Notes: generated from the letters alone by a model not told the origin. DNA of 37,109 nucleotides from Calditrichota bacterium (GCA_016934605.1 JAFGSO010000158.1:1-37109), one strand, 5' to 3'. Positions 1,625 to 33,570 are shown, counted from the stretch's first letter. Numbers and translations are program-made.

Positions 1625-1691
1625 GACAATCCCCTGCTTTAGATTTTCTTAGCTATTTTATCGTAAGTTTAGTGCATATGACCACAAGAGA

Positions 1692-4713: not shown

Positions 4714-7350
4714 CTATCGCATAAGGATCATCTTCCTCGTCTCCACATAATCGCCTGCCTGCAACCTGTACAAATACACTCCACTGGCAAGATTCGACGC
4801 ATCCCATTCAACCGAATGCGAACCGGAAAGCAGAGAACCAGAAAGCAGGGTAGTGACTTCTTCTCCCAGAACATTGAATATTTTCAAAGTAACCTCACTG
4901 GTCTTCGGCAGATCAAACTGGATAGTTGTAGTCGGGTTGAAGGGATTGGGATAATTCTGGTATAGTTGATATCGCTTCACAATTTGAGATTCATCTGTAT
5001 TCCGTTTAATCCCGACAGTGATATTCTGCTGCCCGTGACCACCATACGCACCCATATCACAGGTGATTGTTCCCATGGCTGGCCACAGGGCAAAACCTGA
5101 ATTTTGAGGGTCTTCTGGATCAAAAGAAGATGGATCCGGATTACCGGCATCGATGCAGGGAGAGCTTGGCGATAAACAACAGTGCATGGTATCATTGGGT
5201 GCCATCAGACTGTCATGGAATAAAGGATCTGAGTTCATATTATGAAATCCTGTATATCCACCCCGGATATCCGAATATTGAACGGTGATTTGACCGCCAT
5301 TAAAATTATATATTTCATTCGCCTGACCCGCAGCACTATCTCCCCATAGAATCGTGTTAATGATTTTTGGGTGCGCCTGGGCACCATAGCTGCAAAGACC
5401 ACCGCCATGAATGAGTGCATTATTTTTAGTAATGGTATTATTTATGATTAACGGTCTAGTGGGTTGGGGCTGATGACCACTAAAATAGCATACAGCTATA
5501 CCCGCGGCATAACCCGCCTGGTTGTTGGTTATAATATTGTTTAAAATATCCGGATTACAATTTTCAATATAGACTCCACCACCTTCACCGTAAATATGTT
5601 GTGGACCACCATGGGACTCATTATGAGTAATTAGATTTCCACTGGCGATTACCTTCCCTTGACAGTAAGCAATGGCCAAACCCCCACCTCCTACAAATTG
5701 ACTGGAATTACAAATATTTTGCTGTACAATATTATCTGTAAAAATTATACTATCTGAATTGTCTGGAAGGTATAACAAGACTCCTCCGCCAGCTCCCCAA
5801 TTATGAATAATTGAATTATCACTGATAGTATTATTCCGAATCGTGATTGATTTTCCATAAGTATCTATTCCTGCACCACCTGCCCAATTGTTGGGTTCAT
5901 TAATACTATTATACCTAATTATGTTATTTTCAATAATACAGGTTGAAGCGTTAATTTCAATACCCGCACCCATGCAGTCGATTCCCCGAGAACTAAGGGA
6001 ATTATGTATTATTTTATTATGAGTGATAGAACAACTGGAGGAGTCCACAAAAATCCCTCCACCACCATTATATGGGGTTCCCTGGAAACTTGCGATAGTA
6101 CCGGTACCGTGAGTAATAGTGAATCCGGTTAACGTAGTAGTGCTATCCTCCTCGGAGACAATATATACCACCGACCCACTATCTGGATTCGTCGGCTGAC
6201 TCCCATCAATAATGGTATTGCTGATATGGCTGGTATCTCCATCCACCAGGAAATGGCTGGCCACGGTAATGGCTTTTCCTTTGAAATTGATGTTTTCGTA
6301 ATAGGTGCCTTCATCCACCAGTACGACATCGCCATTGCTGGCGGAATCAATCCCGGCCTGGATGGTGGGGACGTCTGTTGGGACATTAATTACTCTTGGT
6401 GAAGAGGCAAAGCCTATTCTGGCAGTAGAGCTGTTTGGATGTCCCTGGTACCACATTTCATATGCGGAACCTTTGAAAATAAGGCATGGAGACCAAACCC
6501 AGAATTGCTCCCAACTACCTGATGGACCAACATCCAAAACAGGATTAAAAGCATATTTATTCCAGTTAATACCATCTGTTGAAGTTGCGTAACCAATTCT
6601 TATTGTATTGTTATCATTACCGGAATACAACATTTCATAAAAACTGCCATTATGAATAACGCTGCAAACACATGTCCACAAGTCATCCCAACTCCCAGAG
6701 GGGCCTAAATTTAAAACAGGATTACCTGATTTTAACCAAGTGCTCCCATCCGTTGATGTCGCATATCCGATACGGGCTTGTGTACCGTCATTGCCGGTGT
6801 ACCACATATTGAATGTTGTTCCATCAAATATGACAGACGGAAATGATGCCCATGTATCATCCCATTCACCAGAGGTTCCGATGTTCAACACCGGATTATT
6901 AGGATCCCGTGTCCAAGAAATTCCATCCGCTGATGTAGCGTGGCCGGTTCGAAAATAAGTACCATCGAAGCCACCATACCACATATGAAAAATTGTATCA
7001 ACTTTCACTACTGAACAACCCCCAACACCCTGATCCCAGTTTCCTGTACCTCCACCAGGAAACACAGGATTGCCGGCATGTTTACTCCAAGTTACTCCAT
7101 CTGGTGAATTTGCATATCCTATCTGAGCGGTTAGATCATTAGGTGTGAACGATCCACTATACCACATATGGTAAATTCCACCCTCGTAGATGATAAAAGG
7201 TTGTCCCACGCCATTTTGATCCCAGGATCCTGAAGATCCAGGATTTAACACAGGATTCCCCGTATATTTGGTCCACATGGTTTGAGATCCTGCGAAAGAT
7301 AAAAGACCAAAGATCAAAGATAAAAGAATAACCAGTAATTTGTTAGACAT
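4714..7350 (-). CDS. Secreted fusion protein: 5-bladed GH43/GH130-like beta-propeller, right-handed parallel beta-helix, T9SS sorting domain
   Basis: 878-aa ORF with RBS AAGGGGGA and signal peptide MSNKLLVILLSLIFGLLSFAGSQ. Five blade-like repeats (IGYATSTDG..W.K...NPVL..GPSGSWD...MWY.G). Then VPTIQAGIDSASNGDVVLVDEGTYYENINFKGKAITVAS followed by glycine/asparagine-rich beta-helix coils (GGGI...N.I..N). The tail is NYPNPFNPTTTIQFDLPKTSEVTLKIFNVLGEEVTTL...KMILMR. Confidence 0.9.
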   Translation of the reverse strand: MSNKLLVILLSLIFGLLSFAGSQTMWTKYTGNPVLNPGSSGSWDQNGVGQPFIIYEGGIYHMWYSGSFTPNDLTAQIGYANSPDGVTWSKHAGNPVFPGGGTGNWDQGVGGCSVVKVDTIFHMWYGGFDGTYFRTGHATSADGISWTRDPNNPVLNIGTSGEWDDTWASFPSVIFDGTTFNMWYTGNDGTQARIGYATSTDGSTWLKSGNPVLNLGPSGSWDDLWTCVCSVIHNGSFYEMLYSGNDNNTIRIGYATSTDGINWNKYAFNPVLDVGPSGSWEQFWVWSPCLIFKGSAYEMWYQGHPNSSTARIGFASSPRVINVPTDVPTIQAGIDSASNGDVVLVDEGTYYENINFKGKAITVASHFLVDGDTSHISNTIIDGSQPTNPDSGSVVYIVSEEDSTTTLTGFTITHGTGTIASFQGTPYNGGGGIFVDSSSCSITHNKIIHNSLSSRGIDCMGAGIEINASTCIIENNIIRYNSINEPNNWAGGAGIDTYGKSITIRNNTISDNSIIHNWGAGGGVLLYLPDNSDSIIFTDNIVQQNICNSSQFVGGGGLAIAYCQGKVIASGNLITHNESHGGPQHIYGEGGGVYIENCNPDILNNIITNNQAGYAAGIAVCYFSGHQPQPTRPLIINNTITKNNALIHGGGLCSYGAQAHPKIINTILWGDSAAGQANEIYNFNGGQITVQYSDIRGGYTGFHNMNSDPLFHDSLMAPNDTMHCCLSPSSPCIDAGNPDPSSFDPEDPQNSGFALWPAMGTITCDMGAYGGHGQQNITVGIKRNTDESQIVKRYQLYQNYPNPFNPTTTIQFDLPKTSEVTLKIFNVLGEEVTTLLSGSLLSGSHSVEWDASNLASGVYLYRLQAGDYVETRKMILMR

Positions 7351-7416
7351 TTTAAATCCCCCTTCTTAATTTGGTTGACGCTTATATTTATTAAAATAAA
7401 GAGATCAAATGCTATC

Positions 7417-7449
7417 ACTCTGGGGTCAAAAGTTTGCAATTATGTTGCA
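7417..7449 (-). promoter_or_regulatory. Conserved 33-nt upstream motif, copy 1 (candidate promoter/operator of cargo gene 4714-7350)
   Basis: actctggggtcaaaagtttgcaattatgttgca. The first 14 nt are identical to 28841-28854. Both copies continue TTTGC-N7/8-TTGCA. The motif lies 67-99 nt upstream of the start codon at 7350. Confidence 0.45.
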
Positions 7450-7474
7450 AAAAGCGCCAGAAACATGGCGCCGG

Positions 7475-7530
7475 GATAAAGGACAAAGGAGAAAGGACAA
7501 AGAAAAGACAACAAGATAACGAGACACAAG
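7475..7530. repeat. Degenerate heptanucleotide tandem array (purine-rich strand)
   Basis: Reads gataaag gacaaag gagaaag gacaaag aaaagac aacaaga taacgag acacaag. The 7-nt period is incompatible with coding. The tract aagaaaagacaacaagataac is shared with 9375-9395. Confidence 0.75.
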
Positions 7531-7611
7531 AGTGCAATAATCGAAAAACCCCGACATATTTTCTCAAAAATCATATATTAGAATTGTTTCTTGAGCGTTG
7601 TTCCTTAAGCT

Positions 7612-7645
7612 CCGCCGGGCGGGCAGCCTGCCCGCCCACTGGCGG
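7612..7645. other. GC-rich hairpin downstream of the AraC remnant
   Basis: ccgcc gggcgggca gcc tgcccgccc act ggcgg. A 9-bp inner stem plus a 5-bp outer stem. No U-tract on either strand, so it is not called as an intrinsic terminator. Confidence 0.5.
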
Positions 7646-7754: not shown

Positions 7755-7960
7755 AAGTATAAGAAGGGTACGGGTGTAAGGAGAAAGGTGGTGAGTTCCT
7801 TAACTGGAATTTTATGATATCAAATTCAGTAAATCTTAATTGAATGTTGGCAGGATTTTTTGATGGAGATTTTAATGTTAACCATTATACTGGTCATTTG
7901 TTATTGATTATAACCAGCAGAATGGTTATATTTAGCTTAACAAAATATATGGGAATGATA

Positions 7961-9265
7961 ATGGATAAAAATGCTCTGTTTGAAACCCTGGTCCGCTGGA
8001 ATTACTGGGGAGATAAATTATTGCCAGTGCTGGAGCAACGCAATCTGTTAACCACCATTCTCCGGAATAGTACCGGTCATTTACCGGTGGTTATCAGCGG
8101 TGCACGGCGAAGCGGTAAATCGAGTTTATTGTTATTGCTGATGAAAAATTTACTGGATTCCGGGGTGGACCGGTCACAGTTTCTCTACCTCAATTTTGAA
8201 GAGCCGCAATTTACCACCCATCTCTCACCGCTCTTCCTGGATCAACTTGTCACTATCTACCGGGAAAGAATAAATCCGGATAAAAATATATATTTTTTTC
8301 TGGATGAAATACAAAGCTTACCGGATTGGCAACGCTGGGTGCGACGGGAAGCGGATTTGAAAGAACATCGTATATTCCTCACCGGATCATCCGCCAAACT
8401 GTTGAGTGGGGAAATCGCCACCCTGCTCACCGGAAGGTATCTGGAATACCAGCTTTTTCCGCTGTCTTTTCAGGAAATTTTGAAATGGAACCGCATATCT
8501 TATCAAACAGAGGTTGACTGGACTGTCAATAAAGCCCTGATCCGCAATAAGCTGCTAGAATATCTGGAGTGGGGTGGTTTTCCGGAGACAGTTCTGACCG
8601 GCGATGAAGAAAAGCGAAAGAAATTGCTGCAGCAATACCTGAATGATATCCTGTATAGGGACATCGTCTACCGCTATCAGATTCGCGATGTACGATTACT
8701 GGAAGCAATTGCTTATTTCTATATTACCAATATTTCCGCTCCCCATTCCTATAACCGGATCAGAAATATCTTTGATACCTCCATCGACAATATCCGGCGC
8801 TATTCTGCTTATCTGGAAGAATCGTTTCTGCTGCTGATGCTGAATCGGTTTTCCTTCAAAGTCAGTATCCAGCAAAAAAGCAACCGAAAGGTATACGTTA
8901 TTGATCATGGATTACGAAACCAGTTCGGATTCAGATTTTCTCGGGATCTGGGAAAACTGGCCGAGAACATTGTAGCAGTTGCACTCTACCAGAAAGGAGA
9001 CAATTTATTTTACCATGTCAATGAGGGGGAATGCGATTTTATCGTTCAGAGAGAGCATGATTTTTCTCCCTTTCAGGTGTGCATGGGCAATCTCGAACAG
9101 GAAGATGTGCGCCGCCGTGAGCTGAAGGGATTGCTCGCTGCCATGCAGCACCTCGGTAAAACAGAGGGGACTATTTTAACTGATGATCTGGAAGAGATGT
9201 ATAAAGTTGACCATCGAACGATTCATTTCATCCCGCTCTGGAAATTTTTGATCCGGAATGAATAA
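7961..9265 (+). CDS. AAA-family ATPase of the AAA_14 + DUF4143 type
   Basis: Walker A is VISGARRSGKSS and Walker B-like is IYFFLDEIQ. The overall layout (N-terminal P-loop, middle helical region, C-terminal GECDFIVQRE block) is typical of DUF4143 ATPases. The ORF is open from 7844, but the first 39 codons are hydrophobic and low-complexity. The ATG at 7961 is preceded by GGGA, so I call that start. This is the only long plus-strand gene. Confidence 0.8.
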   Translation: MDKNALFETLVRWNYWGDKLLPVLEQRNLLTTILRNSTGHLPVVISGARRSGKSSLLLLLMKNLLDSGVDRSQFLYLNFEEPQFTTHLSPLFLDQLVTIYRERINPDKNIYFFLDEIQSLPDWQRWVRREADLKEHRIFLTGSSAKLLSGEIATLLTGRYLEYQLFPLSFQEILKWNRISYQTEVDWTVNKALIRNKLLEYLEWGGFPETVLTGDEEKRKKLLQQYLNDILYRDIVYRYQIRDVRLLEAIAYFYITNISAPHSYNRIRNIFDTSIDNIRRYSAYLEESFLLLMLNRFSFKVSIQQKSNRKVYVIDHGLRNQFGFRFSRDLGKLAENIVAVALYQKGDNLFYHVNEGECDFIVQREHDFSPFQVCMGNLEQEDVRRRELKGLLAAMQHLGKTEGTILTDDLEEMYKVDHRTIHFIPLWKFLIRNE

Positions 9266-9340
9266 CCATTTATTGAAAAAACAAGCTCCGTATGATGATC
9301 CCGGAATCATTTCTCACAGGGAAATCGTCTGATGCAGGAA

Positions 9341-9505
9341 GAAAGGCTCAAGGCACAGGGCTAAAGGACAACACAAGAAAAGACAACAAGATAACAAGCC
9401 CGTCTGGCCACCGGACAGGATACAAGATTGCAAGAGTTGCTAAATACTGCCAGATTTTCTTAAAAACCAGATTTTGGCCATTTGCCTTGATCCTTGCGCC
9501 TTGAG
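9341..9505. repeat. Intergenic inverted-arm element A: heptamer arrays flanking the 21-nt core
   Basis: Left arm: gaaaggc tcaaggc acagggc taaagga caacaca agaaaag acaacaa gataaca. Core: cccgtctggccaccggacagg at 9399-9419. Right arm: ccatttg ccttgat ccttgcg ccttgag (9478-9505). The right arm is the approximate reverse complement of ctcaaggcacagggctaaagg in the left arm. Confidence 0.7.
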
Positions 9506-9571
9506 AAATTTTGGATGATTTCATTCCGACAATTCAACATGATGTTGATATTTTTGCCGGAAAGCCTTTAT

Positions 9572-9691: not shown

Positions 9692-9880
9692 TGAAAGCGG
9701 TTTTTAAGTTAGCAGTTTGCACTAAAAAAGACGCCAAGATCACAAGCCCGTCTGGCCACCGGACAGGATACAAGAAGACAAGAAAATTTTTTTTATATAA
9801 ATTCTTGGTGTCTTGTAATCTTGTATCTTGTTTTCTTGTATTACCAACCGCTTTCTGCTTTCTCCTCTCTGCTTTCTCTG
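9675..9880. repeat. Intergenic inverted-arm element B: heptamer arrays flanking the 21-nt core
   Basis: Left arm: ccagaaagcagagaagctgaaagcgg (9675-9700). Core: cccgtctggccaccggacagg at 9747-9767. Inner arms: acaagaagacaagaa versus tcttggtg tcttgtaa tcttgta tcttgttt tcttgtat (9803-9841). Right arm: gctttct gctttct cctctct gctttct (9850-9877). The left arm overlaps the CTD remnant. Confidence 0.65.
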
Positions 9881-9910: not shown

Positions 9911-12900
9911 CTAGTCCTGCCGGGCATAGTGCGAAGGTGATTCCCCGAACTGTTCCTGGAAGCAGCGGGAAAAGTAGGAGAGGCTGTTAAAACCCACGTC
10001 GTAAGCGATCTGGGTGACATTCCCGCTCTGTTTTCGGAGCAGGCGAGCGGCCTGTTTCAGGCGGTAAAGGCGGATAAAAGAACTGATAGAATGTCCGGTA
10101 AGAGCCTGCAGCTTGCGATAAATATTCGAGCGACTCATCCCCATCTCCCGGGCACAATCCTCTGCACTGAAATCCATATCAGAAATATTGGCGAGTAACA
10201 CTGATATTAATTTCTGCAAGAATTGGCGGTCCAGACTGGTAACGGCCAGGACATCTGCCAGGCTGTTGGGATCTGTACTGAAACGCTCCTTTAATTTGCA
10301 GCGCTGGTCAATCAAATTTTTTGTTCTTACCTTTAGCTCTTTCATATCAAAAGGCTTGGTGATGTAATCATCCGCCCCGGTTTCCAGGCCCTCCAGCTTG
10401 CTCTCGGCATCGGCCCGGGCGGTCAGCAGAATCACCGGTATATGAGAGGTTCGTTGATCCGTCTTTAATTTCTGACAAAGGGTGTATCCGTCCATCTCCG
10501 GCATCATCACATCACTGATTACGATATCTATCGGTTCTTCAATACTGCGTTCAAACCCGTCCTGGCCATTCACCGCGGTTATGATCCTATATTCATTTTC
10601 AAAATTACAGGCCATGTATTGCCGCATATCGGCATTATCTTCCACGATCAGTAATGTCGGGAGCTTTACTCCGATATCCTGAGTATTGTCTCTTAAATCA
10701 TCTGATATTTCCTGAATCTCATCAACCGGAACCACTTCTTCTGGTATCCGCTCTTCCGGTTCTGCCATTGCCTCAGGGACGATCTCTTCCGGGAGCAGGT
10801 GTTCTTTACCTAATGGTAAAAGAATTTTGAAAGTACTGCCTTTCCCGGGTTCACTCTCTACTTTGATTTCTCCGTGATGTAATTCTACCAGTTCTTTTGC
10901 CAGGGCCAGTCCGATACCGCTGCTTTGCGGATGATTACCGGCTGAGTCATCTGCCTGGTAGAAACGATCAAAGATACGGGGAAGCTGATCCGGGGAGATA
11001 CCGGGGCCGGTGTCTGAGATACTGATTTGAATATATTTTACTGACCCCCCTTTGATTCCCCCCTTATGCATACCTGTCCGGTGGCCAGACGGGAGGGGGG
11101 AAACAGGGGGGTTATATATCGTTACAACAACCTCCCCTCCTTCCGGGGTAAACTTCAGAGCATTGGAAAGCAGATTGTTGATCACCTTTTCCATCATCTC
11201 CGGATCAAGGTAAGCTTCGATATTATTATCAGGTGAAACGAATTGCAGCATTATATTCTTTCTTTCTGCCCAGGACATAAAAGCTAAAACCAGGGGTTTT
11301 AAAAAGGTGCTGATTTCAGTTGACCGGGCTTTCAGTTTCATTTTCCCGGCTTCGATTTTTGAGATGTCCAGCAATTGTTCGATAAGACCCTGCAACCGCT
11401 GGGCACTCCGCTGAATCAGACTTAACTGTTCCTGGGAGCCCCTGTCAGTTGTGTGTGATAACAGTTTATCCAGTGGCCCCTTGATCAAAGTGAGCGGTGT
11501 CCGGAACTCATGGGAGATATTGGCAAAAAATCTGGATTTGACCTGGTCAATTTCCTGTAACTTTTCCGCCCGCAGATGGTCGATTTCCGCCTGGTGTTTT
11601 AGCCGAAGGCGGTTCGTACGTACGCGCCATCCTGTGACAATTACCACGGCAAGAATACCAAAATACAGGATATAAGCCCACGGTGTATTCCACCAGGGGG
11701 TATAAACCACTATTTTCCCGGGCAAAAAATCCATTTTTGCCCCCCAGCCGGGGGAAATCTTTATCCATTTCAGGACCTGGGCCGAAAAATTGCTGGTCAG
11801 CATACGGGAATCGTACTCGCCATCGGCCAGGTATATAGTATGTTGGTGTAAGCTATCACCCTGTAATTTTGATAGTGCCAGGTGCAGGGATTTCAGGGGT
11901 TTCGATTTTTTTTGACCGGAGTTATTATCATCTCCCTCGCTACTCACATACAAATTGGCATGCACCTGTGAGAGTTGAAAATTATCTGAATTTAAAATAA
12001 ATTTGGATTTCGGGAAGGCATGTAAATCCGTAACGGTTTGAACGGTGAAAGTATCCAGCGATAAATTGATATTCGGACCTACAAATGCAAATAAATCATT
12101 ACCTATCTCAATAGAGCGATTTAAATAAATACTGCATTTTTCCTGATCCGAGAAATAAGTCTCGGTACAGTTTTCAAAATAAATGCCGCCGCCCCGCATC
12201 GCTTCATTGTGGTGAATACTTGAATTTGCACAATTTGCTGAAGCAAAATCAAAATAAATTCCACCGCCTGACTGATTTGCTGTGTTTCCTGTGATACGAT
12301 TATTCCTGAGGTCAAGTCGGGAATCCTGGCAATAAATTCCACCACCATTTTCCTCTGATATGTTGTCTAAGATAATTGAGTTAATAAGGGAGGCGTTACT
12401 CACCTCAGCGATAAAAATGCCACCCCCCATCTCCTTTGCTCTGTTTTCAGAGAAATCACAATATGAAATTTCAGTTTGGCATTCCTCCGAAACCGTTATT
12501 CCCCCGCCATATACACCAAAGTTGTTTTTAAAAGTGCTGTTGACTATCGAACCCTCACACTTTTCATTGAAATTTAATCCTCCGCCGATTTTGGCATAAT
12601 TTTCGGAAAAATAAGTATCATGAATCGTTATCTTTGATGAATAAAGAAGATTAATACCCCCACCGGCAAATGCTGAATTGCCGCTGAGCTGACAATTATT
12701 CAGATAACAAATGCTGTAATATTGGACATCAAGTGCACCCCCGGTAAATTTTGAGGCTGCATTATCTTTAAAGGTGCAATTTTCAAAGGTGACATTTGAG
12801 TACCAGATGGAAATACCTCCACCACCATATCGGAGTGCTTTGTTTTTTGTGAAGTCGCTATTCTGAATTATCGCCCGGGATTTTTCACAGATAAAAATGG

Positions 12901-13426
12901 CGCCGCCCGTATGGTGTGTCACATTATTCTGAAATGTACAATGATCAATAAGCAATTTTGTGTTGAAGCAAGCGATAGCGCCACCATATTCCCGAAAATT
13001 AACCAGGACAATTCCCCCCGGCAATGTTTCGACATATTTTATCATCTCTTTTTTGGTACTATCTATACGACCGTGAGCATACTTCATAACTGTGTGAATC
13101 ATTTTACAGTTTGAGTGCGCATTTTCGAAAATAATACCTCCCCAACCGCTTACTTGATCTTTTGCTGAAAAAACAACCGGTTCTGCAGCAGTTCCTTCTG
13201 TAATCAATAATCCTTTAACAAATATCCGGTGATGACCCAGAAATGTAATATTTACGCCAGCTTCAATCAGAAGAGCTGTTCCTTCAGGAATCTCGATATC
13301 GCCGTCAATAAGATAGGGACTACTTGTCTTTGTCCATGTACCACCCACCGTCCCTTCTTGAATAATCCCTGATTTCAGTTGCGAGGTGATACACAGAATG
13401 GAAATGAAAATTAAATAAAATTTCAC
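9911..13426 (-). CDS. Hybrid two-component sensor (HisKA, HATPase_c, REC, AraC HTH) with a parallel beta-helix periplasmic domain
   Basis: 1171-aa ORF. GTG start 10 nt after the LamG gene stop. Signal/TM segment MKFYLIFISILCITSQL. About 550 aa of GGAI/GGGI and FxxN coils. Juxtamembrane PWWNTPWAY plus a TM segment. H-box FANISHEFRTPLT, N-box NLLSNALKFTPEGG, G1 box SDTGPGI. REC domain LLIVEDNADMRQY...DIVISDVMMPEMDG. AraC HTH IAYDVGFNSLSYFSRCFQEQFGESPSHYARQD. Confidence 0.92.
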   Translation of the reverse strand: MKFYLIFISILCITSQLKSGIIQEGTVGGTWTKTSSPYLIDGDIEIPEGTALLIEAGVNITFLGHHRIFVKGLLITEGTAAEPVVFSAKDQVSGWGGIIFENAHSNCKMIHTVMKYAHGRIDSTKKEMIKYVETLPGGIVLVNFREYGGAIACFNTKLLIDHCTFQNNVTHHTGGAIFICEKSRAIIQNSDFTKNKALRYGGGGISIWYSNVTFENCTFKDNAASKFTGGALDVQYYSICYLNNCQLSGNSAFAGGGINLLYSSKITIHDTYFSENYAKIGGGLNFNEKCEGSIVNSTFKNNFGVYGGGITVSEECQTEISYCDFSENRAKEMGGGIFIAEVSNASLINSIILDNISEENGGGIYCQDSRLDLRNNRITGNTANQSGGGIYFDFASANCANSSIHHNEAMRGGGIYFENCTETYFSDQEKCSIYLNRSIEIGNDLFAFVGPNINLSLDTFTVQTVTDLHAFPKSKFILNSDNFQLSQVHANLYVSSEGDDNNSGQKKSKPLKSLHLALSKLQGDSLHQHTIYLADGEYDSRMLTSNFSAQVLKWIKISPGWGAKMDFLPGKIVVYTPWWNTPWAYILYFGILAVVIVTGWRVRTNRLRLKHQAEIDHLRAEKLQEIDQVKSRFFANISHEFRTPLTLIKGPLDKLLSHTTDRGSQEQLSLIQRSAQRLQGLIEQLLDISKIEAGKMKLKARSTEISTFLKPLVLAFMSWAERKNIMLQFVSPDNNIEAYLDPEMMEKVINNLLSNALKFTPEGGEVVVTIYNPPVSPLPSGHRTGMHKGGIKGGSVKYIQISISDTGPGISPDQLPRIFDRFYQADDSAGNHPQSSGIGLALAKELVELHHGEIKVESEPGKGSTFKILLPLGKEHLLPEEIVPEAMAEPEERIPEEVVPVDEIQEISDDLRDNTQDIGVKLPTLLIVEDNADMRQYMACNFENEYRIITAVNGQDGFERSIEEPIDIVISDVMMPEMDGYTLCQKLKTDQRTSHIPVILLTARADAESKLEGLETGADDYITKPFDMKELKVRTKNLIDQRCKLKERFSTDPNSLADVLAVTSLDRQFLQKLISVLLANISDMDFSAEDCAREMGMSRSNIYRKLQALTGHSISSFIRLYRLKQAARLLRKQSGNVTQIAYDVGFNSLSYFSRCFQEQFGESPSHYARQD
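11041..11114 (-). repeat. In-frame 74-nt palindromic element, copy in sensor 1
   Basis: ctgaccccccTTTGATTccccccttatgcataCCTGTCCGGTGGCCAGACGGGaggggggAAACAggggggtta. It encodes NPPVSPLPSGHRTGMHKGGIKGGS between the N-box and the G1 box. It matches 30169-30242 at 71 of 74 positions. Confidence 0.85.
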
Positions 13427-13436
13427 AAATATTCCG

Positions 13437-14150
13437 TTAATTATTGTTGTTATAAAGTCGTTTTATTTCCTCATCATTGAGAACTCTATTATAAATTCGT
13501 ATTTCATCCAGAATCCCATTTTGCAACTCACCGATGTCGATATTTTCCGCAGCCCCCCCTCCAATGAAGATGTCTGTCAGGCCGATTTTATTCCATCGTA
13601 CATTATATACCGCTCTTCGTTCAATCAGAGTGTCGTCTATCCAGAAGCTCAGAAAATGATCATCGGCTGTAAAAAAATATTGATGCCATTCACGAACATA
13701 TTGGGGTTTGTATAATATTCTGATCCAGTAGAATGACCCGGAGATTTCAGTGATTATCGGTTGACCACCGATACTAAATGAAAAATTAAAATCCTGATCG
13801 CTTTTTCCAAAACCGATCCCGATGGTATCTGACCAAAATCCGGCGGAAATCTGCTTTGTTTCCGAAAAATCAAAATCTGAGGAAAAAGGAACACGAATAA
13901 AATCGTCAATCCCATCGAAGTATGCCGCACTCCGAGGATTTTCGAACCGATCCGCTACCCAGCTCACCCCAATCACCATCCCATGATTTCCGTTTCCGCT
14001 GGCATCCCGGGCATTCCCATTAAAGGGATAATAGAGAACCAGCCCGGAGTCGAGGTTAACGCGACTATGATTTTCTAAAGTTCTATGATTTTGAGAAGGG
14101 AGTATATAGTGTAAAAGCAGAAGAAGTATTATTGGTTTGTATTTAGCCAT
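13437..14150 (-). CDS. Secreted LamG / concanavalin-A-like lectin domain protein
   Basis: 237-aa ORF with signal peptide MAKYKPIILLLLLHYILPSQ. LVLYYPFNGNARDASGNGNHG and LDEIRIYNRVLNDEEIKRLY are the characteristic start and end of Laminin_G_3-type domains. The stop is 10 nt before the sensor start, so the two genes are probably co-transcribed. Confidence 0.85.
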   Translation of the reverse strand: MAKYKPIILLLLLHYILPSQNHRTLENHSRVNLDSGLVLYYPFNGNARDASGNGNHGMVIGVSWVADRFENPRSAAYFDGIDDFIRVPFSSDFDFSETKQISAGFWSDTIGIGFGKSDQDFNFSFSIGGQPIITEISGSFYWIRILYKPQYVREWHQYFFTADDHFLSFWIDDTLIERRAVYNVRWNKIGLTDIFIGGGAAENIDIGELQNGILDEIRIYNRVLNDEEIKRLYNNNN

Positions 14151-14852: not shown

Positions 14853-16697
14853 CTATTTTATCAATATTAACTTTTTCTGATACAGGATTCCGTTCACTTC
14901 CAGCTGGTAAAAATAAATACCGCTGGCTGCCTCAGATGCATTCCAGCTGTAGCTGTGCCGCCCGGAATTTAAATCTCCCGTCACCAGGCTGGCCACGACC
15001 TGTCCCAGAACACTATAGATTTTTAATTGGACACGTGCTTTTTCCGATAATTGAAAACTAATGGTAGTCTGATTATTGAATGGATTAGGAAACGCCGATG
15101 TCTGTACTGCAGTATTCTGATTTTTAGATAATAATACCGATTCTTCACCTTCCAGTGCTTTCATTATCGCGGCAAAGCCAGGGGTATTGGACCAGCAGGC
15201 TGCCTGTGGACCGCCAAAAGCACCGATATCATTCCTGACAGTCCCGTGGGCCGGCAGCTGAGTAGAGCCAGGATATACCGTACCCTCGGGATCATTATAC
15301 ATCGGATCCGGATTACCGGCGTCGATGCAGGGGGAGCGAAATCCCAGGAATAGCAGCGGCCCAAACAGCCGTGGATTGACATTCAGGTTGCCGGTTCCGG
15401 TCCAGCCACCCCTGACATCCGAATAGGTAATATCGATAGCCCCGCTTTCTATGTATACTTCCGCCGCGTCCGGAGCATAATTATTCCACAGAATTGAATT
15501 CATGACCGAAGCGGCAGAGTTTTTAGTATAAATTCCTCCGCCCTTAATCTCAGCATAATTTTTGGCTATGGTATTATTATTAATCTGGGCAAAACTGAAT
15601 GCATCGCCAATCCAGCCGCCACCGCCATAGGTAGCATGATTTTTTTCAAACAGGTTGTTTTCAATAACCGGACTGCCATCCCAGATGGCAAACCCACCGC
15701 CATAACAGGGACCTGTTCCGCTGAATAAGTTATGAGAAACAATATTGTTTCGGAAATAAAGATCGTCTGGAGGATAATCAAATACCACTCCCGCGCCGTA
15801 ACTGCTATTGACCGCATTCACTTCATTATGTTGTATGATATTATTAACATAGACACCTTTGCTGCCCAGTATCGACAATCCACCGGCATGCCCCCCTAAC
15901 CAGAATGTGGCAGTTTCACTTTGCAAGGCCTTATTATGAGTGATAATATTTCCGGACATATATACTTCATTGGGAGGCGTTGGAGCCGACCAGGATTGAA
16001 CAATTAATCCTCCACCTCCGGCACTTCCTTCTTCGGCAAATACCGTATTCCTTACAAAACTATTATTCACAATTCTTCCCGAGCTGCAAAATGACACCCC
16101 GCCTCCGCCGCTTAAAAATGAACCGTTTACCCTGTTTCCCTCGAAAACATTATTCTCCAGGATGACATAGGTCGGAATGAAAGGTGGACTGCTGGCGAAT
16201 CCACCGCCCCAGCCCAGACCCAGGAGTCCATTTTCCGATTTATTACCGGTGATGATATTGTGGATTATTTTGGCACCGGAAGCCAGGCAGATGATACCAC
16301 CCCCTTCTCTGAGGATATAAGGGGGTGTGTTTTCAAATGTTCCGGTACCACCGGTGATGGTAAAACCGCACAGGACCGAATTGGTATCCTCCCCGGAAAC
16401 AAAACTAACCACTGAACCGAGATCCGGATCAACAGGTCGGCTACCATCAATAATGGTTTTGCTGATATGCTTCTCCTGTCCATCCAGATAAAATTTACTG
16501 GCCACGGTAATGGCTTTCCCCATATAATTGATATTTTCGTAATAGGTGCCCTCGGACACCAAAACTACATCGCCCGTTGTTGCGGCATTAATGCCATTCT
16601 GGATGGTGGGTTGGTCTGCCGGTACATTGATAATACTGCCAAAAGCCATGGATGCCATACCAATAATGAAAATGAAAAGGGATAGAATAGGACGCAT
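14853..16697 (-). CDS. Secreted right-handed parallel beta-helix protein with T9SS sorting domain
   Basis: 614-aa ORF with signal peptide MRPILSLFIFIIGMASMAFG. Cap module PTIQNGINAATTGDVVLVSEGTYYENINYMGKAITVAS. GGGG/NN.I coils. SPCIDAGNPDP...DIGAFGG block. Tail FPNPFNNQTTISFQLSEKARVQLKIYSVLGQVVASL...ASGIYFYQLEVNGILYQKKLILIK. Confidence 0.9.
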   Translation of the reverse strand: MRPILSLFIFIIGMASMAFGSIINVPADQPTIQNGINAATTGDVVLVSEGTYYENINYMGKAITVASKFYLDGQEKHISKTIIDGSRPVDPDLGSVVSFVSGEDTNSVLCGFTITGGTGTFENTPPYILREGGGIICLASGAKIIHNIITGNKSENGLLGLGWGGGFASSPPFIPTYVILENNVFEGNRVNGSFLSGGGGVSFCSSGRIVNNSFVRNTVFAEEGSAGGGGLIVQSWSAPTPPNEVYMSGNIITHNKALQSETATFWLGGHAGGLSILGSKGVYVNNIIQHNEVNAVNSSYGAGVVFDYPPDDLYFRNNIVSHNLFSGTGPCYGGGFAIWDGSPVIENNLFEKNHATYGGGGWIGDAFSFAQINNNTIAKNYAEIKGGGIYTKNSAASVMNSILWNNYAPDAAEVYIESGAIDITYSDVRGGWTGTGNLNVNPRLFGPLLFLGFRSPCIDAGNPDPMYNDPEGTVYPGSTQLPAHGTVRNDIGAFGGPQAACWSNTPGFAAIMKALEGEESVLLSKNQNTAVQTSAFPNPFNNQTTISFQLSEKARVQLKIYSVLGQVVASLVTGDLNSGRHSYSWNASEAASGIYFYQLEVNGILYQKKLILIK

Positions 16698-19806: not shown

Positions 19807-20466
19807 TTACAACAGATGTTCTTTCAGCGCTTTGGCAATCACATCGATCTGGGAATGCACATGCAGTTTGGCATATATATTTTTCAAATGGGTATCTACA
19901 GTATAGAGACTGATACAGAGACGATCCGCCAGGTGTTTTTTACTGTGGCCATCCACCAGCAGCTGCAGGATTTCCTTCTCCCGGGTAGTGAGATCATATT
20001 CTCCTTTGGGTTCAGCATACTGTGTGAACATTTTCAGCACCTTTCCGGCAATGGTCGGGGTCATGGCCGCCCCACCGCACAGCACATTTTGAATCGACTC
20101 ATAAATTTGCCGGGGCGTGGCAGATTTCAGAAGATACCCTTCTGCCCCGCGGCACAGGGCATTGAATATCAGATCGTCATCGTCGAATACAGTGAGCATA
20201 ATAATGTGGGTGGAAGGCGAAAAAGCTTTGAATTTGGGAATACCTTCGATGCCGCTTATGCCGGGGAGTTTGATATCCAGTAAAAGAACCTCCGGGGCAA
20301 AATCTTTTTCCAGAATCTCCAGCGCCTCCTCACAGGATTCGCAGGCATAGGGACAGGCCAGATTTTCGCCGGCACTAATAGCAGCCTGCAGGGACTGCCG
20401 GTAAGTGACATCATCTTCAATAATCATTACGTTGATAGTGGAAAGTTTTGGTGGATTCTTTTCCAT
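19807..20466 (-). CDS. Response regulator, NarL/LuxR family (REC + LuxR-type HTH)
   Basis: 219-aa ORF. REC domain INVMIIEDD...EVLLLDIKLPGISG...IIMLTVFDD. LuxR HTH LTTREKEILQLLVDGHSKKHLADRLCISLYTVDTHLKNIYAKLHV. Confidence 0.92.
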   Translation of the reverse strand: MEKNPPKLSTINVMIIEDDVTYRQSLQAAISAGENLACPYACESCEEALEILEKDFAPEVLLLDIKLPGISGIEGIPKFKAFSPSTHIIMLTVFDDDDLIFNALCRGAEGYLLKSATPRQIYESIQNVLCGGAAMTPTIAGKVLKMFTQYAEPKGEYDLTTREKEILQLLVDGHSKKHLADRLCISLYTVDTHLKNIYAKLHVHSQIDVIAKALKEHLL

Positions 20467-33235: not shown

Positions 33236-33570
33236 TGTTCGTTCAGACAATATTTGTTTTAGATGAATTTACAAATTTAACAGAGAATTTACAAGAAAAT
33301 GTAGTGCATAAATGAAAAAAATCATCATATAAATTTCACTTTTATGATGATGATCATAGAAGAAAGAATTTATAAACACAGACATTATCTTTAAAGAAAT
33401 CCGAAACGCCTGCTAAAATACATATCAGGATAATTTCACCGAAATTTTGTAAACGGAGGGCAATTTACCGCAGTAGATGATAAATTTTACGAAATTATGT
33501 GATTTTTTTAAGAAAGAGTAGGCTCTTATCAGAGTCAGCTTTCTGTTTGAAACCCCATCAACACCCTCTA

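What the first reader, a model, noticed from the sequence alone, without database searches (positions are those of the whole stretch)
11700..13426. Hybrid sensor whose periplasmic domain is a Pmp-like parallel beta-helix instead of the propeller/Y_Y_Y module
From the juxtamembrane motif (PWWNTPWAY) onward, 9911-13426 is a clear paralogue of the classical sensor 28982-33235. Its ~550-aa extracytoplasmic region has none of the LWIGT..GL..FD propeller repeats and no Y_Y_Y domain.

Instead it is a run of coils carrying FxxN followed by GGA(I/L)/GGGI:
- CTFQNNVTHHTGGAIFI
- SDFTKNKALRYGGGGISI
- CTFKDNAASKFTGGALDV
- TYFSENYAKIGGGLNF
- STFKNNFGVYGGGITV
- CDFSENRAKEMGGGIFI
- ITGNTANQSGGGIYF

GGA(I/L/V) plus FxxN repeats are the defining signature of chlamydial polymorphic membrane proteins, which form parallel beta-helices.

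The same general fold is what the neighbouring secreted cargo proteins carry. The sensor input domain therefore appears to have been swapped for an enzyme-like or adhesin-like helix, possibly to sense the same glycan that the cargo acts on.

I do not know of a characterised hybrid two-component sensor with this input domain.
Basis: partly seen in the sequence, partly recalled or inferred. Interest (0 to 1): 0.7.

Follow-up and report, generated by a model that had tools for sequence, protein, structure and literature searches.

The report
Hybrid sensor kinase with beta-helix input
This is a one-protein membrane sensor and gene regulator whose outward-facing sensing part has been replaced by a beta-helix copied from a secreted surface protein, and it belongs to a small, undescribed family that probably switches on the secreted-protein genes lying next to it.

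Summary
ORF 9911..13426(-) encodes a 1171-aa hybrid two-component system (HTCS): signal anchor, ~550-aa periplasmic domain, one TM helix, then HisKA, HATPase_c, REC and AraC-HTH.

From aa 571 onward it is 63% identical to the window's classical Reg_prop/Y_Y_Y sensor. The periplasmic part has no propeller or Y_Y_Y. It carries 11 PMP-type coils spaced 25-28 aa apart, above the Pfam and TIGRFAM cut-offs. AlphaFold2 (pLDDT 85) models a right-handed beta-helix.

Its closest relatives are the N-terminal ~560 aa, signal peptide included, of T9SS-secreted PMP/DUF1565 beta-helix proteins, mostly named Cloacimonetes. The fusion point is exactly the PWW juxtamembrane motif.

It is not a one-off. At least 20 sequences share the same indel-free junction, forming 6 clusters at 50% identity among 1.84 billion representatives. 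The input domain is under purifying selection (dN/dS ~0.15). The gene nearly always sits upstream of T9SS cargo genes.

Other HTCSs of this clade carry different cargo-derived inputs: a second beta-helix type and a GH130-like domain.

The ligand and the regulon are inferred, not shown. I found no published description. Verdict: real, a new variant of a known kind, moderately high interest.

The parts
9911..13426 (-). Whole gene: 1171-aa beta-helix-input hybrid two-component system (HTCS)
   Evidence: ORF. Pfam domains. Same-architecture homologs P0122-P0127, P0009, P0014, P0347, P0349-P0351.
13361..13426 (-). aa 1-22: N-terminal signal peptide or signal anchor (MKFYLIFISILCITSQLKSGII)
   Evidence: Kyte-Doolittle peak at aa 4-22. 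AF2 helix 2-15. Collinear with the signal peptides of T9SS cargo relatives.
13007..13360 (-). aa 23-140: N-terminal cap and first turns of the beta-helix, with a low-confidence loop at aa 123-139
   Evidence: AF2 pLDDT >90 for aa 21-120. Family-invariant residues W31, S36, P37, Y38, E55, D90, W95, F100.
12137..13006 (-). aa 141-430: 11 PMP-type coils ([F/I/L]xxN ... GGG[I/L]), the body of the right-handed parallel beta-helix
   Evidence: Periodicity of 25-28 aa, 11 motifs against a shuffle mean of 0.15. Chlam_PMP and POMP_repeat above cut-off. AF2 pLDDT 90-98. Foldseek hits are PL6 lyases, AlgG, tailspikes, Ag43 and pertactin.
11702..12136 (-). aa 431-575: membrane-proximal subdomain. It comprises the end of helix 1, the conserved LDTFTV hairpin, and a DUF1565-like cap plus first turns of a second, truncated beta-helix.
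   Evidence: Best-conserved part of the input domain, 39.9% identity among distant members. Indel-free alignment in 10 sensors. A profile of the alignment hits the N-terminus of pectinesterase 3uw0.
11621..11701 (-). aa 576-602: PWWNTPWAY juxtamembrane motif plus the TM helix. This is the fusion and recombination joint.
   Evidence: The BLASTP match to the Reg_prop paralogue starts at aa 571. The hydropathy peak is at aa 581-602. Synonymous divergence from ortholog P0122 jumps here from ~0.4 to 0.7-0.94.
11345..11539 (-). aa 630-694: HisKA domain (H-box SHEFRTP, His639)
   Evidence: Pfam 64.7 bits. Motif position.
10808..11206 (-). aa 741-873: HATPase_c domain with N, G1, F and G2 boxes present. 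A ~24-aa Pro/Gly-rich insert lies between the N and G1 boxes.
   Evidence: Pfam 94.3 bits. Motifs. The insert is 96% identical at DNA level to the paralogue's insert.
10325..10651 (-). aa 926-1034: receiver domain (E929/D930, D972, T1002, K1024)
   Evidence: Pfam 89 bits. Motifs.
9917..10153 (-). aa 1092-1170: AraC-type HTH output domain
   Evidence: Pfam HTH_18 81.1 bits and HTH_AraC 46.5 bits.
13437..14150 (-). 237-aa secreted Laminin_G_3 (ConA-like lectin fold) protein, whose stop lies 10 nt upstream of the sensor start. Candidate co-receptor.
   Evidence: Pfam 35.7 bits. The same gene lies directly upstream of the sensor in L001 (82% identity) and L006 (61%). Its synonymous divergence matches that of the beta-helix part (pS 0.45).
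7380..7620 (-). Conserved sensor-to-cargo intergenic region, the candidate operator and promoter. It contains TCTTGT-like direct repeats and TTGCAACATAATTGCAAACTTTTG.
   Evidence: ~80% identical to L001 4373-4626, which lies between the orthologous sensor and a different cargo gene. The distal motif is also present in L006.
9300..9520 (-). Duplicate of the sensor-proximal half of that intergenic region, left next to the sensor stop by the insertion carrying gene 7844..9265
4714..7350 (-). First downstream T9SS cargo gene (878 aa): GH130-like N-domain, beta-helix module and Por_Secre_tail. Probable regulated target.
   Evidence: Pfam and NCBIfam. The module is ~40% identical to the first gene downstream of beta-helix sensors in L002, L007 and L104.
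230..4607 (-). Two further same-strand T9SS cargo genes (971 aa and 464 aa)
   Evidence: Por_Secre_tail hits. The 464-aa protein is 45% identical to a cargo protein downstream of sensor P0351 in L105.

Best explanation
The gene encodes an inner-membrane hybrid two-component system, a sensor kinase, receiver and AraC DNA-binding domain in one chain. Its classical double-propeller/Y_Y_Y input has been replaced by a ~550-aa right-handed beta-helix.

**Origin.** The helix was captured, signal peptide included, from the N-terminal part of a T9SS-secreted PMP/DUF1565-type surface protein. It was spliced to the HTCS chassis exactly at the conserved PWW juxtamembrane motif.

**Proposed mechanism.**
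- The helix sits in the periplasm as a dimeric, membrane-tethered receptor.
- It binds a periplasmic ligand. The most likely ligand is a fragment of the polymer (glycan or other) that related secreted beta-helix proteins bind outside the cell.
- Binding changes the geometry of the membrane-proximal subdomain and the TM helices.
- The kinase autophosphorylates at His639 and passes the phosphoryl group to Asp972 in the same chain.
- The freed AraC domain binds the conserved intergenic region immediately downstream and activates the adjacent T9SS cargo genes.

**Shown:** architecture, fold, topology, intact catalytic motifs, origin and junction of the input domain, a conserved family, purifying selection, and conserved position upstream of T9SS cargo with a conserved intergenic region.

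**Inferred:** the ligand, dimeric signalling, the regulon and the direction of regulation.
For: - **Domains and motifs:**
- **Paralogy:** 63% identity from aa 571 onward.
- **Beta-helix fold:** AF2 pLDDT 85.3; all top Foldseek hits are beta-helices.
- **Topology:** two hydrophobic segments only.
- **Origin:** closest relatives are T9SS-sorted PMP/Beta_helix/DUF1565 proteins, with collinear N-termini.
- **Family:** same architecture at 37-72% identity in independent JGI, ENA, Logan and NCBI assemblies. The junction is indel-free in 10 sensors.
- **Selection:** the input domain has pN 0.093, pS 0.43 and dN/dS ~0.15 against ortholog P0122.
- **Context:** Por_Secre_tail cargo genes lie directly downstream on the same strand in L001, L002, L007, L091, L098, L104, L105 and the P0009 contig. 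They are drawn from a small recurring set of cargo families.
- **Intergenic region:** the sensor-cargo region is conserved between the window and L001 although the downstream cargo gene differs.
- **HTCS precedent:** in Bacteroides, HTCS periplasmic domains bind sugars, a swapped periplasmic domain (BT1754/BT0366 chimera) signals, and the intact protein binds DNA next to the genes it regulates (PMC3404733).
- **Co-opted-sensor precedent:** the RsgI6 GH10 module is 57% identical to the regulated xylanase Xyn10D and retains binding (PMC4711584).
- **Parallel cases:** P0282 (beta-helix of the window's cargo-module family) and P0318/P0334 (GH130-like, matching the N-domain of window cargo).
Against: - No ligand, binding site or catalytic residue could be identified. 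The family-invariant residues are mostly structural Gly/Asn ladders that cargo relatives share.
- The function of the PMP-like cargo family is itself unknown, so 'polymer fragment' is a guess. Neighbouring cargo includes peptidases (M14, S41) as well as GH130-like domains.
- Downstream cargo genes differ between close orthologs. In the window an unrelated gene on the opposite strand now separates sensor and cargo.
- A rigid beta-helix has no known way of signalling across a membrane.
- Topology rests on hydropathy and AF2 only, not on a dedicated predictor.
Confidence: 0.55

Rival explanations
1. Two-part receptor. The small secreted LamG (ConA-like lectin) protein encoded 10 nt upstream is the true ligand binder. 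The beta-helix is a docking platform that reads its liganded state, as TorS reads TorT and LuxQ reads LuxP. The rest of the pathway is as in the best explanation.
For: - The LamG gene is tightly coupled to the sensor in the window, L001 and L006.
- It is 82% and 61% identical in those two loci.
- Its synonymous divergence matches that of the beta-helix part (pS 0.45 vs 0.43), while the cytoplasmic half is saturated. LamG and beta-helix therefore travel together as one cassette.
- It has a signal peptide and no T9SS sorting domain.
Against: More distant family members have no such gene upstream. L003 has 460 nt of non-coding DNA and a divergent gene there. L104 has 400 nt and an opposite-strand gene. 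The partner therefore cannot be a general requirement of the family. No interaction was tested.
Confidence: 0.2
2. Secretion or cargo surveillance. Because the input domain is a copy of a T9SS cargo domain, it could interact with cargo in transit through the periplasm (beta-helix self-association of the Ag43 type) or with T9SS or chaperone components. It would then tune cargo gene expression to secretion capacity rather than to an external nutrient.
For: - The input domain is homologous to cargo.
- The sensor is consistently adjacent to T9SS cargo genes.
- Ag43 and pertactin are among the structural matches.
- This HTCS clade captured cargo-type domains at least three times.
Against: - The sensor lacks the C-terminal sorting domain that T9SS machinery recognises.
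- The GH130-like variants are hard to explain by homotypic stacking.
- Adjacent cargo proteins are only remotely similar to the sensor helix (best E 1.7e-4 within the window).
- There is no precedent.
Confidence: 0.1
3. Non-sensing input. The beta-helix is a structural spacer or dimerisation scaffold, or a retained surface or adhesin function. The kinase is constitutive or controlled from the cytoplasm.
For: No ligand site was identified. Conserved residues are mainly structural. PMP-type helices are generally adhesins rather than receptors (established knowledge of chlamydial Pmps).
Against: - The whole 550-aa domain is under purifying selection (dN/dS ~0.15).
- Between the window and P0122 the input domain is more conserved than the transmitter (80% vs 67% identity).
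- The domain is retained in 6 clusters at 50% identity.
- A membrane-tethered periplasmic domain cannot act as a surface adhesin.
Confidence: 0.08
4. Artefact: a metagenome assembly chimera joining the 5' part of a cargo gene to the 3' part of an HTCS gene, or a decaying pseudogene.
For: The window is a single metagenomic contig (the self hit P0121 has a longest contig of 37109). GC3 differs between the halves, 0.377 vs 0.528.
Against: - The identical, indel-free junction occurs in at least 20 sequences from independent samples and assemblers, including NCBI MAG GCA_028284905.1.
- The ORF is intact and all catalytic motifs are present.
- Selection is purifying.
Confidence: 0.01

Closest known systems
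Bacteroides hybrid two-component systems (HTCS), e.g. BT4663 (Reg_prop/Y_Y_Y input, PDB 4A2L/4A2M), BT0366, BT1754 (fructose-binding input)
   Same: - One polypeptide with a periplasmic input between a signal anchor and a TM helix, then HisKA, HATPase_c, REC and AraC-HTH.
- 63% identical to a classical HTCS in the same window from the PWW motif onward.
- Encoded next to the secreted or degradative genes it presumably controls.
- Input-domain swaps are known to be tolerated (BT1754/BT0366 chimera, PMC3404733).
   Different: - The input is a PMP-type right-handed beta-helix, not a propeller/Y_Y_Y or sugar-binding-protein fold.
- The neighbours are T9SS cargo genes, not SusC/D-type PULs.
- A membrane-proximal truncated second helix replaces Y_Y_Y, so the scissor-blade model built on BT4663 cannot simply be transferred.
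- A 2021 review's table of HK sensor structures lists PAS-like/PDC, all-alpha, double VFT, Y_Y_Y and PAS+TPR, and no beta-helix (PMC8534201).
Clostridium thermocellum RsgI anti-sigma-I biomass sensors, especially RsgI6 with a GH10 sensing module
   Same: An extracytoplasmic sensing module is a co-opted copy of a domain found in the secreted proteins under control. RsgI6-GH10 is 57% identical to Xyn10D, has low activity and retains binding (PMC4711584). The same logic applies here and in the sister variants P0282 and P0318/P0334.
   Different: - The signalling chassis is entirely different: an anti-sigma factor with regulated proteolysis versus a His-Asp phosphorelay with a tethered AraC domain.
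- RsgI belongs to Gram-positive organisms.
- RsgI sensing modules are CBM3, PA14, GH10 or GH5, not beta-helices.
- No RsgI_N domain is present here.
Chlamydial polymorphic membrane proteins (Pmp) and other beta-helical autotransporter passengers (Ag43, pertactin)
   Same: GGA(I/L/V)-type and [F]xxN repeats score above the Pfam and TIGRFAM repeat cut-offs. The fold is a right-handed parallel beta-helix, and Ag43b and pertactin are among the Foldseek hits.
   Different: No Pmp middle domain and no autotransporter beta-barrel. The protein is tethered to the inner membrane and faces the periplasm, not displayed on the surface. The source organism is not chlamydial. It shares the repeat type only.
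T9SS-sorted PMP/DUF1565 'right-handed parallel beta-helix repeat-containing' proteins of Cloacimonadota and related MAGs (e.g. P0020, P0033, P0041)
   Same: These are the true closest sequence relatives of the input domain: 28-40% identity, collinear from the signal peptide to the start of the second helix. They carry the same Chlam_PMP/NosD/Beta_helix signatures.
   Different: They continue into further beta-helix units and end in a Por_Secre_tail sorting domain. The sensor breaks off after ~3 turns of helix 2 and continues into a TM helix and kinase.
Sensor kinases that read a periplasmic partner protein (TorS/TorT, LuxQ/LuxP)
   Same: A small secreted putative ligand-binding protein (LamG) is co-encoded with the sensor and co-inherited with the sensor's input domain.
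   Different: The partner fold (ConA-like, not a periplasmic binding protein) and the sensor fold both differ. The partner is present in only one subclade of the family. No interaction was shown.

Membership tests
Hybrid two-component system (HTCS) | HisKA, HATPase_c, receiver and AraC-type HTH in a single polypeptide | tested here: met
   Pfam: HisKA 64.7, HATPase_c 94.3, Response_reg 89, HTH_18 81.1 and HTH_AraC 46.5 bits, all above cut-off.
Hybrid two-component system (HTCS) | Phospho-acceptor His in the H-box, N/G1/F/G2 boxes, and receiver Asp/Thr/Lys | tested here: met
   SHEFRTP at 638-644, NLLSNALKF at 751, DTGPGI at 805, FDRFYQ at 819, GIGLA at 837, ED at 929-930, D972, T1002, K1024.
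Hybrid two-component system (HTCS) | Large extracytoplasmic input domain bracketed by an N-terminal signal or TM segment and one TM helix | tested here: met
   Only two hydrophobic segments, aa 4-22 and 581-602. AF2 helices at 2-15 and 582-628. A basic stretch (WRVRTNRLRLK) follows TM2. No dedicated topology predictor was available.
Hybrid two-component system (HTCS) | Classical input: Reg_prop beta-propellers plus Y_Y_Y domain | tested here: not met
   No Reg_prop or Y_Y_Y hit in this protein. Both are found in the paralogue 28982..33250 in the same scan. It is therefore a variant, not a classical member.
Hybrid two-component system (HTCS) | Encoded next to the genes it regulates | tested here: inconclusive
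   Same-strand T9SS cargo genes follow the sensor in nearly all loci, and the intergenic region is conserved. Regulation itself was not measured.
Hybrid two-component system (HTCS) | Periplasmic domain binds a specific oligo- or monosaccharide signal | not testable with these tools
   Needs binding assays. No ligand site could be inferred.
Chlamydial polymorphic membrane protein (Pmp) family | Multiple GGA(I/L/V) and FxxN repeats | tested here: met
   Chlam_PMP 33 bits (cut-off 20.6). POMP_repeat 37 bits (cut-off 15). 11 GG[GA][ILV] motifs.
Chlamydial polymorphic membrane protein (Pmp) family | Pmp middle domain and C-terminal autotransporter beta-barrel | tested here: not met
   No such Pfam hits. 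The C-terminal 600 aa are kinase, receiver and AraC.
Right-handed parallel beta-helix (pectin-lyase-like) fold | Stacked three-strand coils forming a right-handed helix | tested here: met
   AF2 pLDDT 90-98 over aa 150-430 with three strands per 25-28 aa. The 17 Foldseek hits with E<=1e-3 are all beta-helix proteins.
T9SS cargo (type A sorting domain proteins) | C-terminal Por_Secre_tail sorting domain | tested here: not met
   Absent from the sensor. Present in its closest input-domain relatives and in eight window neighbours.
RsgI-type anti-sigma biomass sensors | N-terminal RsgI_N anti-sigma domain with a C-terminal extracytoplasmic sensing module | tested here: not met
   No anti-sigma domain. 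The resemblance is functional only: a co-opted cargo-like sensing module.

The most novel reading that the evidence does not exclude
In these uncultured FCB-group lineages, HTCS sensors acquire new specificities by 'cargo-domain capture'. The 5' part of a T9SS cargo gene, with its signal peptide and first folded domain, is recombined onto a standard kinase-receiver-AraC transmitter at a fixed joint, the PWW juxtamembrane motif.

This has happened at least three times: with the PMP/DUF1565 beta-helix, with the cargo-module beta-helix, and with a GH130-like propeller. The joint is still active. The LamG plus beta-helix cassette and the transmitter have different synonymous divergences in two close orthologs.

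The beta-helix version would be a new structural class of histidine-kinase input domain. It would need a transmembrane signalling mechanism different from the PDC, four-helix-bundle, VFT and propeller/Y_Y_Y types.
Probability: 0.45. Interest if true: 0.75.

Novelty: new variant of a known kind. Interest (0 to 1): 0.6.

Why it matters
- **New input fold.** Histidine-kinase input domains fall into a short list of folds. A long, rigid beta-helix is not on it, and it raises the question of how binding along such a rod reaches the TM helices.
- **A natural splice site.** The family shows a precise, reusable natural joint (PWW) for exchanging HTCS inputs. That is directly useful for building chimeric sensors.
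- **A route to the cargo's function.** PMP-like beta-helix proteins with T9SS signals are greatly expanded in Cloacimonadota-like genomes (3733 hits at E<=1e-3 among the 8000 candidates scored), and their function is unknown. A sensor built from the same domain and wired to a transcriptional output offers a reporter-based way to find what these helices bind.
- **A shared strategy.** It extends the idea of sensors borrowed from the regulated enzymes, known from clostridial RsgI factors, to two-component systems of the FCB group.

Tried and rejected
- **GTDB scan.** The scan of GTDB species representatives with the junction alignment A2 was saturated by classical HTCSs through the SHEFRTPLT pattern. 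None of the 80 kept loci matched the periplasmic part. The best partial match, L012, is a frameshifted Reg_prop/Y_Y_Y HTCS. Absence from cultured or representative genomes is therefore not established.
- **Homolog search with the cytoplasmic half.** This search listed only proteins up to 1051 aa. It missed the known orthologs, so it could not be used to count input types among the nearest transmitters.
- **NJ tree of transmitter halves.** The tree places the window's Reg_prop paralogue inside the beta-helix sensor clade. I do not read this as reversion. Sampling is sparse, all transmitter pairs are saturated at synonymous sites, and the indel-free junction argues for one founding fusion followed by transmitter exchange.
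- **Recent gene conversion between the window's two HTCS paralogues.** Rejected for the halves as a whole (pS 0.73). It holds only for a 72-nt insert.
- **AF2 of the neighbouring cargo module.** With only 4 sequences, the model reached pLDDT 64.6 and Foldseek E-values above 0.01. AlgE4, Ag43 and polygalacturonase appear among Ig-like CTD hits. This is consistent with a beta-helix but not decisive. The Pfam Beta_helix hit in a paralogous copy is the better evidence.
- **Promoter and terminator scan.** The sigma-70 scan was uninformative: 20 sites against 16.6 expected.
- **PDB sequence search.** The input-domain profile gave one marginal hit, pectinesterase.
- **Literature.** Searches pairing beta-helix terms with sensor kinases found nothing relevant.
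- **Adjacent-cargo test.** I checked whether the GH130-like HTCSs sit beside GH130-like cargo. They do not. 'Sensor domain equals adjacent cargo domain' is therefore not a rule.

Full report
**1. The observation**

ORF 9911..13426 on the minus strand is intact. It has a GTG start and encodes 1171 aa.

The repeat is stronger than described. Eleven GG[GA][ILV] motifs lie 25-28 residues apart between aa 148 and 415. In 2000 shuffles of that segment the mean count was 0.15 and the maximum 3. FxxN on its own is not significant: 6 observed against a mean of 2.3 and a maximum of 7. What recurs in register is [F/I/L]xxN, an asparagine ladder.

Pfam scores the Chlam_PMP repeat at 33.0 bits (gathering score 20.6). 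NCBIfam TIGR01376 POMP_repeat scores 37 bits (cut-off 15).

The same Pfam scan finds HisKA (aa 630-694), HATPase_c (741-873), Response_reg (926-1034) and HTH_18/HTH_AraC (1092-1170). It finds no Reg_prop or Y_Y_Y. The protein from 28982..33250 has Reg_prop, Y_Y_Y and the same four cytoplasmic domains.

BLASTP between the two proteins gives 63% identity over aa 571-1169 vs 803-1414, starting at KIVVYTPWW / KVIILPPWW. Nothing N-terminal to that aligns. The finding's coordinates correspond to aa 1-575.

**2. Fold and topology**

An AlphaFold2 model of aa 1-629, built from an 18-sequence alignment, has mean pLDDT 85.3 and pTM 0.73. Over aa 150-430, pLDDT is 90-98 and the pattern is three short strands per coil. 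The model also has a helix at aa 2-15 and a long helix at aa 582-628.

Foldseek against the PDB returns 17 matches at E<=1e-3. All are right-handed parallel beta-helices: PL6 alginate lyases, the epimerase AlgG, HK620 and CBA120 tailspikes, and Ag43b. Pertactin and P22 tailspike follow just below. TM-scores are low, 0.2-0.43, so no particular family is indicated.

Hydropathy shows only two hydrophobic segments, aa 4-22 and 581-602. The second is followed by WRVRTNRLRLK. The ~550 residues between them are therefore periplasmic, which is the standard HTCS topology. This inference rests on hydropathy and AF2, because no dedicated predictor was available. The kinase and receiver catalytic motifs are all present.

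**3. Where the input domain came from**

A search with aa 1-629 finds thousands of proteins carrying Chlam_PMP, Beta_helix, NosD or DUF1565 signatures and a C-terminal Por_Secre_tail (T9SS) sorting domain. Most named examples come from Cloacimonetes MAGs.

Several of them (P0020, P0033, P0039, P0041) align with 85-89% of the query at 28-33% identity, starting at their own signal peptides. In these cargo proteins the matching region has three parts: the first beta-helix unit, a conserved NRCNI..GNDL..LDTFTV hairpin, and the DLYVxPxGxDxNSG..PL..I..AL cap that opens a second helix unit.

The sensor follows the cargo pattern up to about three turns into helix 2. It then switches at TPWW into the HTCS juxtamembrane motif. 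The input is therefore a 5' fragment of a T9SS cargo gene joined to an HTCS transmitter at the PWW joint.

The cargo proteins encoded in the window itself are only remotely similar to the sensor helix (best E 1.7e-4).

**4. A family, not an accident**

The same architecture occurs in the following sequences:
- P0122 (72% identity), P0123 (59%), and P0124, P0125, P0126, P0127, P0014, P0009 and the partial P0001 (37-45%), from JGI, ENA and Logan assemblies.
- Eleven further JGI metagenome loci, L090-L100, with full-length ORFs of 1101-1154 aa in L091, L096, L098 and L099.
- P0347 and P0350, from NCBI assemblies. P0350 lies on a 224-kb contig of GCA_028284905.1.

An exhaustive HMMER search of 1.84 billion cluster representatives finds only six clusters at 50% identity that match across both halves: P0122, P0347, P0014, P0349, P0350 and P0351. 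By comparison, about 200,000 proteins match at E<=1e-30 to either half.

From the end of helix 1 to HisKA, ten sensors align essentially without indels: the alignment has only two single-residue gap columns in the periplasmic part and none from the helix-2 cap to the PWW motif. This points to one founding fusion and rules out an assembly chimera.

Against its closest ortholog (L001), the input domain has pN 0.093 and pS 0.43, giving dN/dS of about 0.15. No source gives these proteins more than an automatic name.

**5. Context**

The window consists of three tandem 'sensor then T9SS cargo' units, all on the minus strand:
- **Unit A:** Reg_prop HTCS 28982..33250, then cargo 26131..28779 and 24362..26095.
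- **Unit B:** Reg_prop/HisKA_3 kinase 20666..23893 with LuxR regulator 19807..20466, then cargo 16782..19568 and 14853..16697.
- **Unit C:** LamG gene 13437..14150 with the beta-helix HTCS, then cargo 4714..7350, 1692..4607 and 230..1624.

A ~450-aa cargo module recurs four times in the window. One copy hits Pfam Beta_helix at 37.2 bits. The module is about 40% identical to the first gene downstream of beta-helix sensors in L002, L007 and L104.

Other downstream cargo families also recur between loci:
- The ASH/LamG giant cargo in L001, L006 and L104.
- The Peptidase_S41 cargo in L001 and L105.
- The window's 464-aa cargo in L105.
- The 882-aa cargo downstream of the window's classical HTCS, which recurs downstream of the beta-helix sensors in L002 and L007.

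In nearly every locus the sensor is followed on the same strand by Por_Secre_tail genes.

The ~250-nt region between sensor and first cargo gene in L001 is about 80% identical to window 7380-7620, just upstream of cargo 4714..7350. This holds even though the two cargo genes are different. The region's proximal half is repeated at 9300-9520, next to the sensor stop. The gene 7844..9265 on the opposite strand therefore lies in an insertion that split this region.

The conserved block contains TCTTGT-like direct repeats and TTGCAACATAATTGCAAACTTTTG. The end of the latter resembles the Bacteroidetes TAnnTTTG promoter element (my own knowledge). The motif is also present in L006.

This is the best available, though indirect, evidence that the sensor acts on the gene immediately downstream. 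Characterised HTCSs do the same (PMC3404733).

**6. Ongoing exchange at the joint**

Between the window and L001, synonymous divergence is 0.28-0.47 across aa 1-540, and 0.45 in the LamG gene. It rises to 0.7-0.94 from aa ~560-600 to the end. GC3 is 0.377 in the periplasmic part of the window gene and 0.528 in the cytoplasmic part.

All transmitter halves, including that of the window's classical paralogue, are mutually saturated at synonymous sites. The LamG plus beta-helix cassette and the transmitter therefore have different histories in these two lineages. This implies a second recombination at the same joint.

It may also explain why the window's classical paralogue falls inside the beta-helix sensors in a transmitter-only NJ tree. 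I treat that tree as weak evidence.

**7. Other inputs on the same chassis**

The cytoplasmic-half search shows this HTCS clade with several input types: Reg_prop/Y_Y_Y (the majority), 7TMR-DISM, TPR, Beta_helix (P0282) and GH130/GH32-like (P0318, P0334).
- The P0282 input is 36-49% identical to the window's cargo beta-helix module.
- The P0318 and P0334 inputs are 31-37% identical to the GH130-like N-domain of window cargo 4714..7350 and 16782..19568. For P0318 the match begins at the cargo's first residue.
- The GH130-like variants also precede T9SS cargo genes, but the adjacent cargo does not carry the matching domain.

Capture of cargo-type domains as HTCS inputs is therefore recurrent.

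**8. How it most likely works**

*Shown:* architecture, fold, topology, intact catalytic motifs, origin and junction, family, purifying selection, synteny and a conserved downstream intergenic region.

*Inferred:* the periplasmic helix binds a ligand. That changes the membrane-proximal subdomain and TM geometry, drives His639-to-Asp972 phosphotransfer within the chain, and releases the AraC domain to activate the downstream cargo genes.

The ligand is unknown. The most economical guess is a fragment of whatever the related secreted helices bind. This follows the analogy with Bacteroides HTCSs and with RsgI6, whose GH10 sensing module is 57% identical to a xylanase it regulates.

In the window's subclade the co-inherited LamG protein may be a co-receptor. 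A cargo or secretion surveillance role is possible but less likely. The artefact and pseudogene readings are excluded.

**9. Comparison with what is known, and novelty**

The protein meets every defining feature of an HTCS except the classical input. It shares only the repeat type and fold with chlamydial Pmps. It is not a T9SS cargo protein, because it has no sorting domain.

A 2021 review's table of histidine-kinase sensor structures has no beta-helix class. Three full-text searches pairing beta-helix terms with sensor kinases found nothing relevant. These searches cover open-access literature only.

I rate it a new variant of a known kind, with moderately high interest because of three points:
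- the new input fold;
- the fixed natural splice joint;
- the recurrent capture of cargo domains.

Noticed in passing
window 7844-9265 (+), with flanks 7380-7620 and 9300-9520: The only plus-strand gene in the window (AAA_14 + DUF4143 ATPase) matches the PADLOC candidate defence family PDC-S01 (383 bits, E 3e-115). It sits in an insertion that split and partly duplicated the conserved sensor-to-cargo intergenic region.
   Followed up: partly
window 9399-9419 (+), 9747-9767 (+), 11073-11093 (-), 30201-30221 (-): There are four exact copies of the quasi-palindromic 21-mer CCCGTCTGGCCACCGGACAGG, against 0 expected and none in 107 other loci. Two copies lie in the intergenic DNA downstream of the sensor. 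Two lie inside coding sequence, within a ~72-nt C-run/G-run element. That element forms an in-frame Pro/Gly-rich insert (NPPVSPLPSGHRTGMHKGG.KGGS) between the N and G1 boxes of HATPase_c in both HTCS paralogues. There it is 96% identical at DNA level while the flanks are ~55-60% identical. It looks like a small genome-specific repeat element tolerated in the ATP-lid region, or a local gene conversion.
   Followed up: partly
window 230-35627 (-): The contig is three tandem 'sensor then T9SS cargo' units. A ~450-aa beta-helix cargo module is present four times: as the whole proteins 14853..16697 and 24362..26095, and fused behind a GH130-like N-domain in 4714..7350 and 16782..19568. The classical Reg_prop sensor and the beta-helix sensors of other loci sit in front of the same cargo families.
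   Followed up: partly
P0282, P0318 (L106 5154-7922), P0334 (L107 1386-4541): Other HTCSs on the same chassis have inputs homologous to this window's cargo domains. The P0282 input is 36-49% identical to the cargo beta-helix module. The P0318 and P0334 inputs are 31-37% identical to the GH130-like cargo N-domain. HTCSs with 7TMR-DISM and TPR inputs also occur in the clade.
   Followed up: partly
window 11600-11750 (sensor aa ~560-600) vs L001: Synonymous divergence from the closest ortholog jumps from ~0.4 (LamG gene and periplasmic part) to 0.7-0.94 (cytoplasmic part) exactly at the juxtamembrane/TM joint. GC3 also differs, 0.377 vs 0.528. This indicates recombination at the domain boundary.
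   Followed up: yes
L095 6906-9107 and 12182-13432: A family member identical to P0127 over the 729 aa of its N-terminal fragment is split into two ORFs by a ~3-kb insertion that carries a 321-aa ORF. The P0127 loci L003 and L004 also carry an IS110-family transposase and a toxin-antitoxin pair nearby.
   Followed up: no
window 33618-35627 (-): A T9SS cargo protein with a class-I glutamine amidotransferase-like domain (GATase, 49.9 bits) followed by Por_Secre_tail. This is an unusual domain for a secreted protein.
   Followed up: no
window 4714-7350 and 16782-19568 (-): Both cargo proteins begin with a GH130-like domain (best NCBIfam match beta-1,2-mannobiose phosphorylase, 79 and 48 bits, far below the equivalog cut-offs). 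GH130 enzymes are normally cytoplasmic or periplasmic phosphorylases or hydrolases, and here the domain is fused to a beta-helix and a T9SS signal.
   Followed up: no
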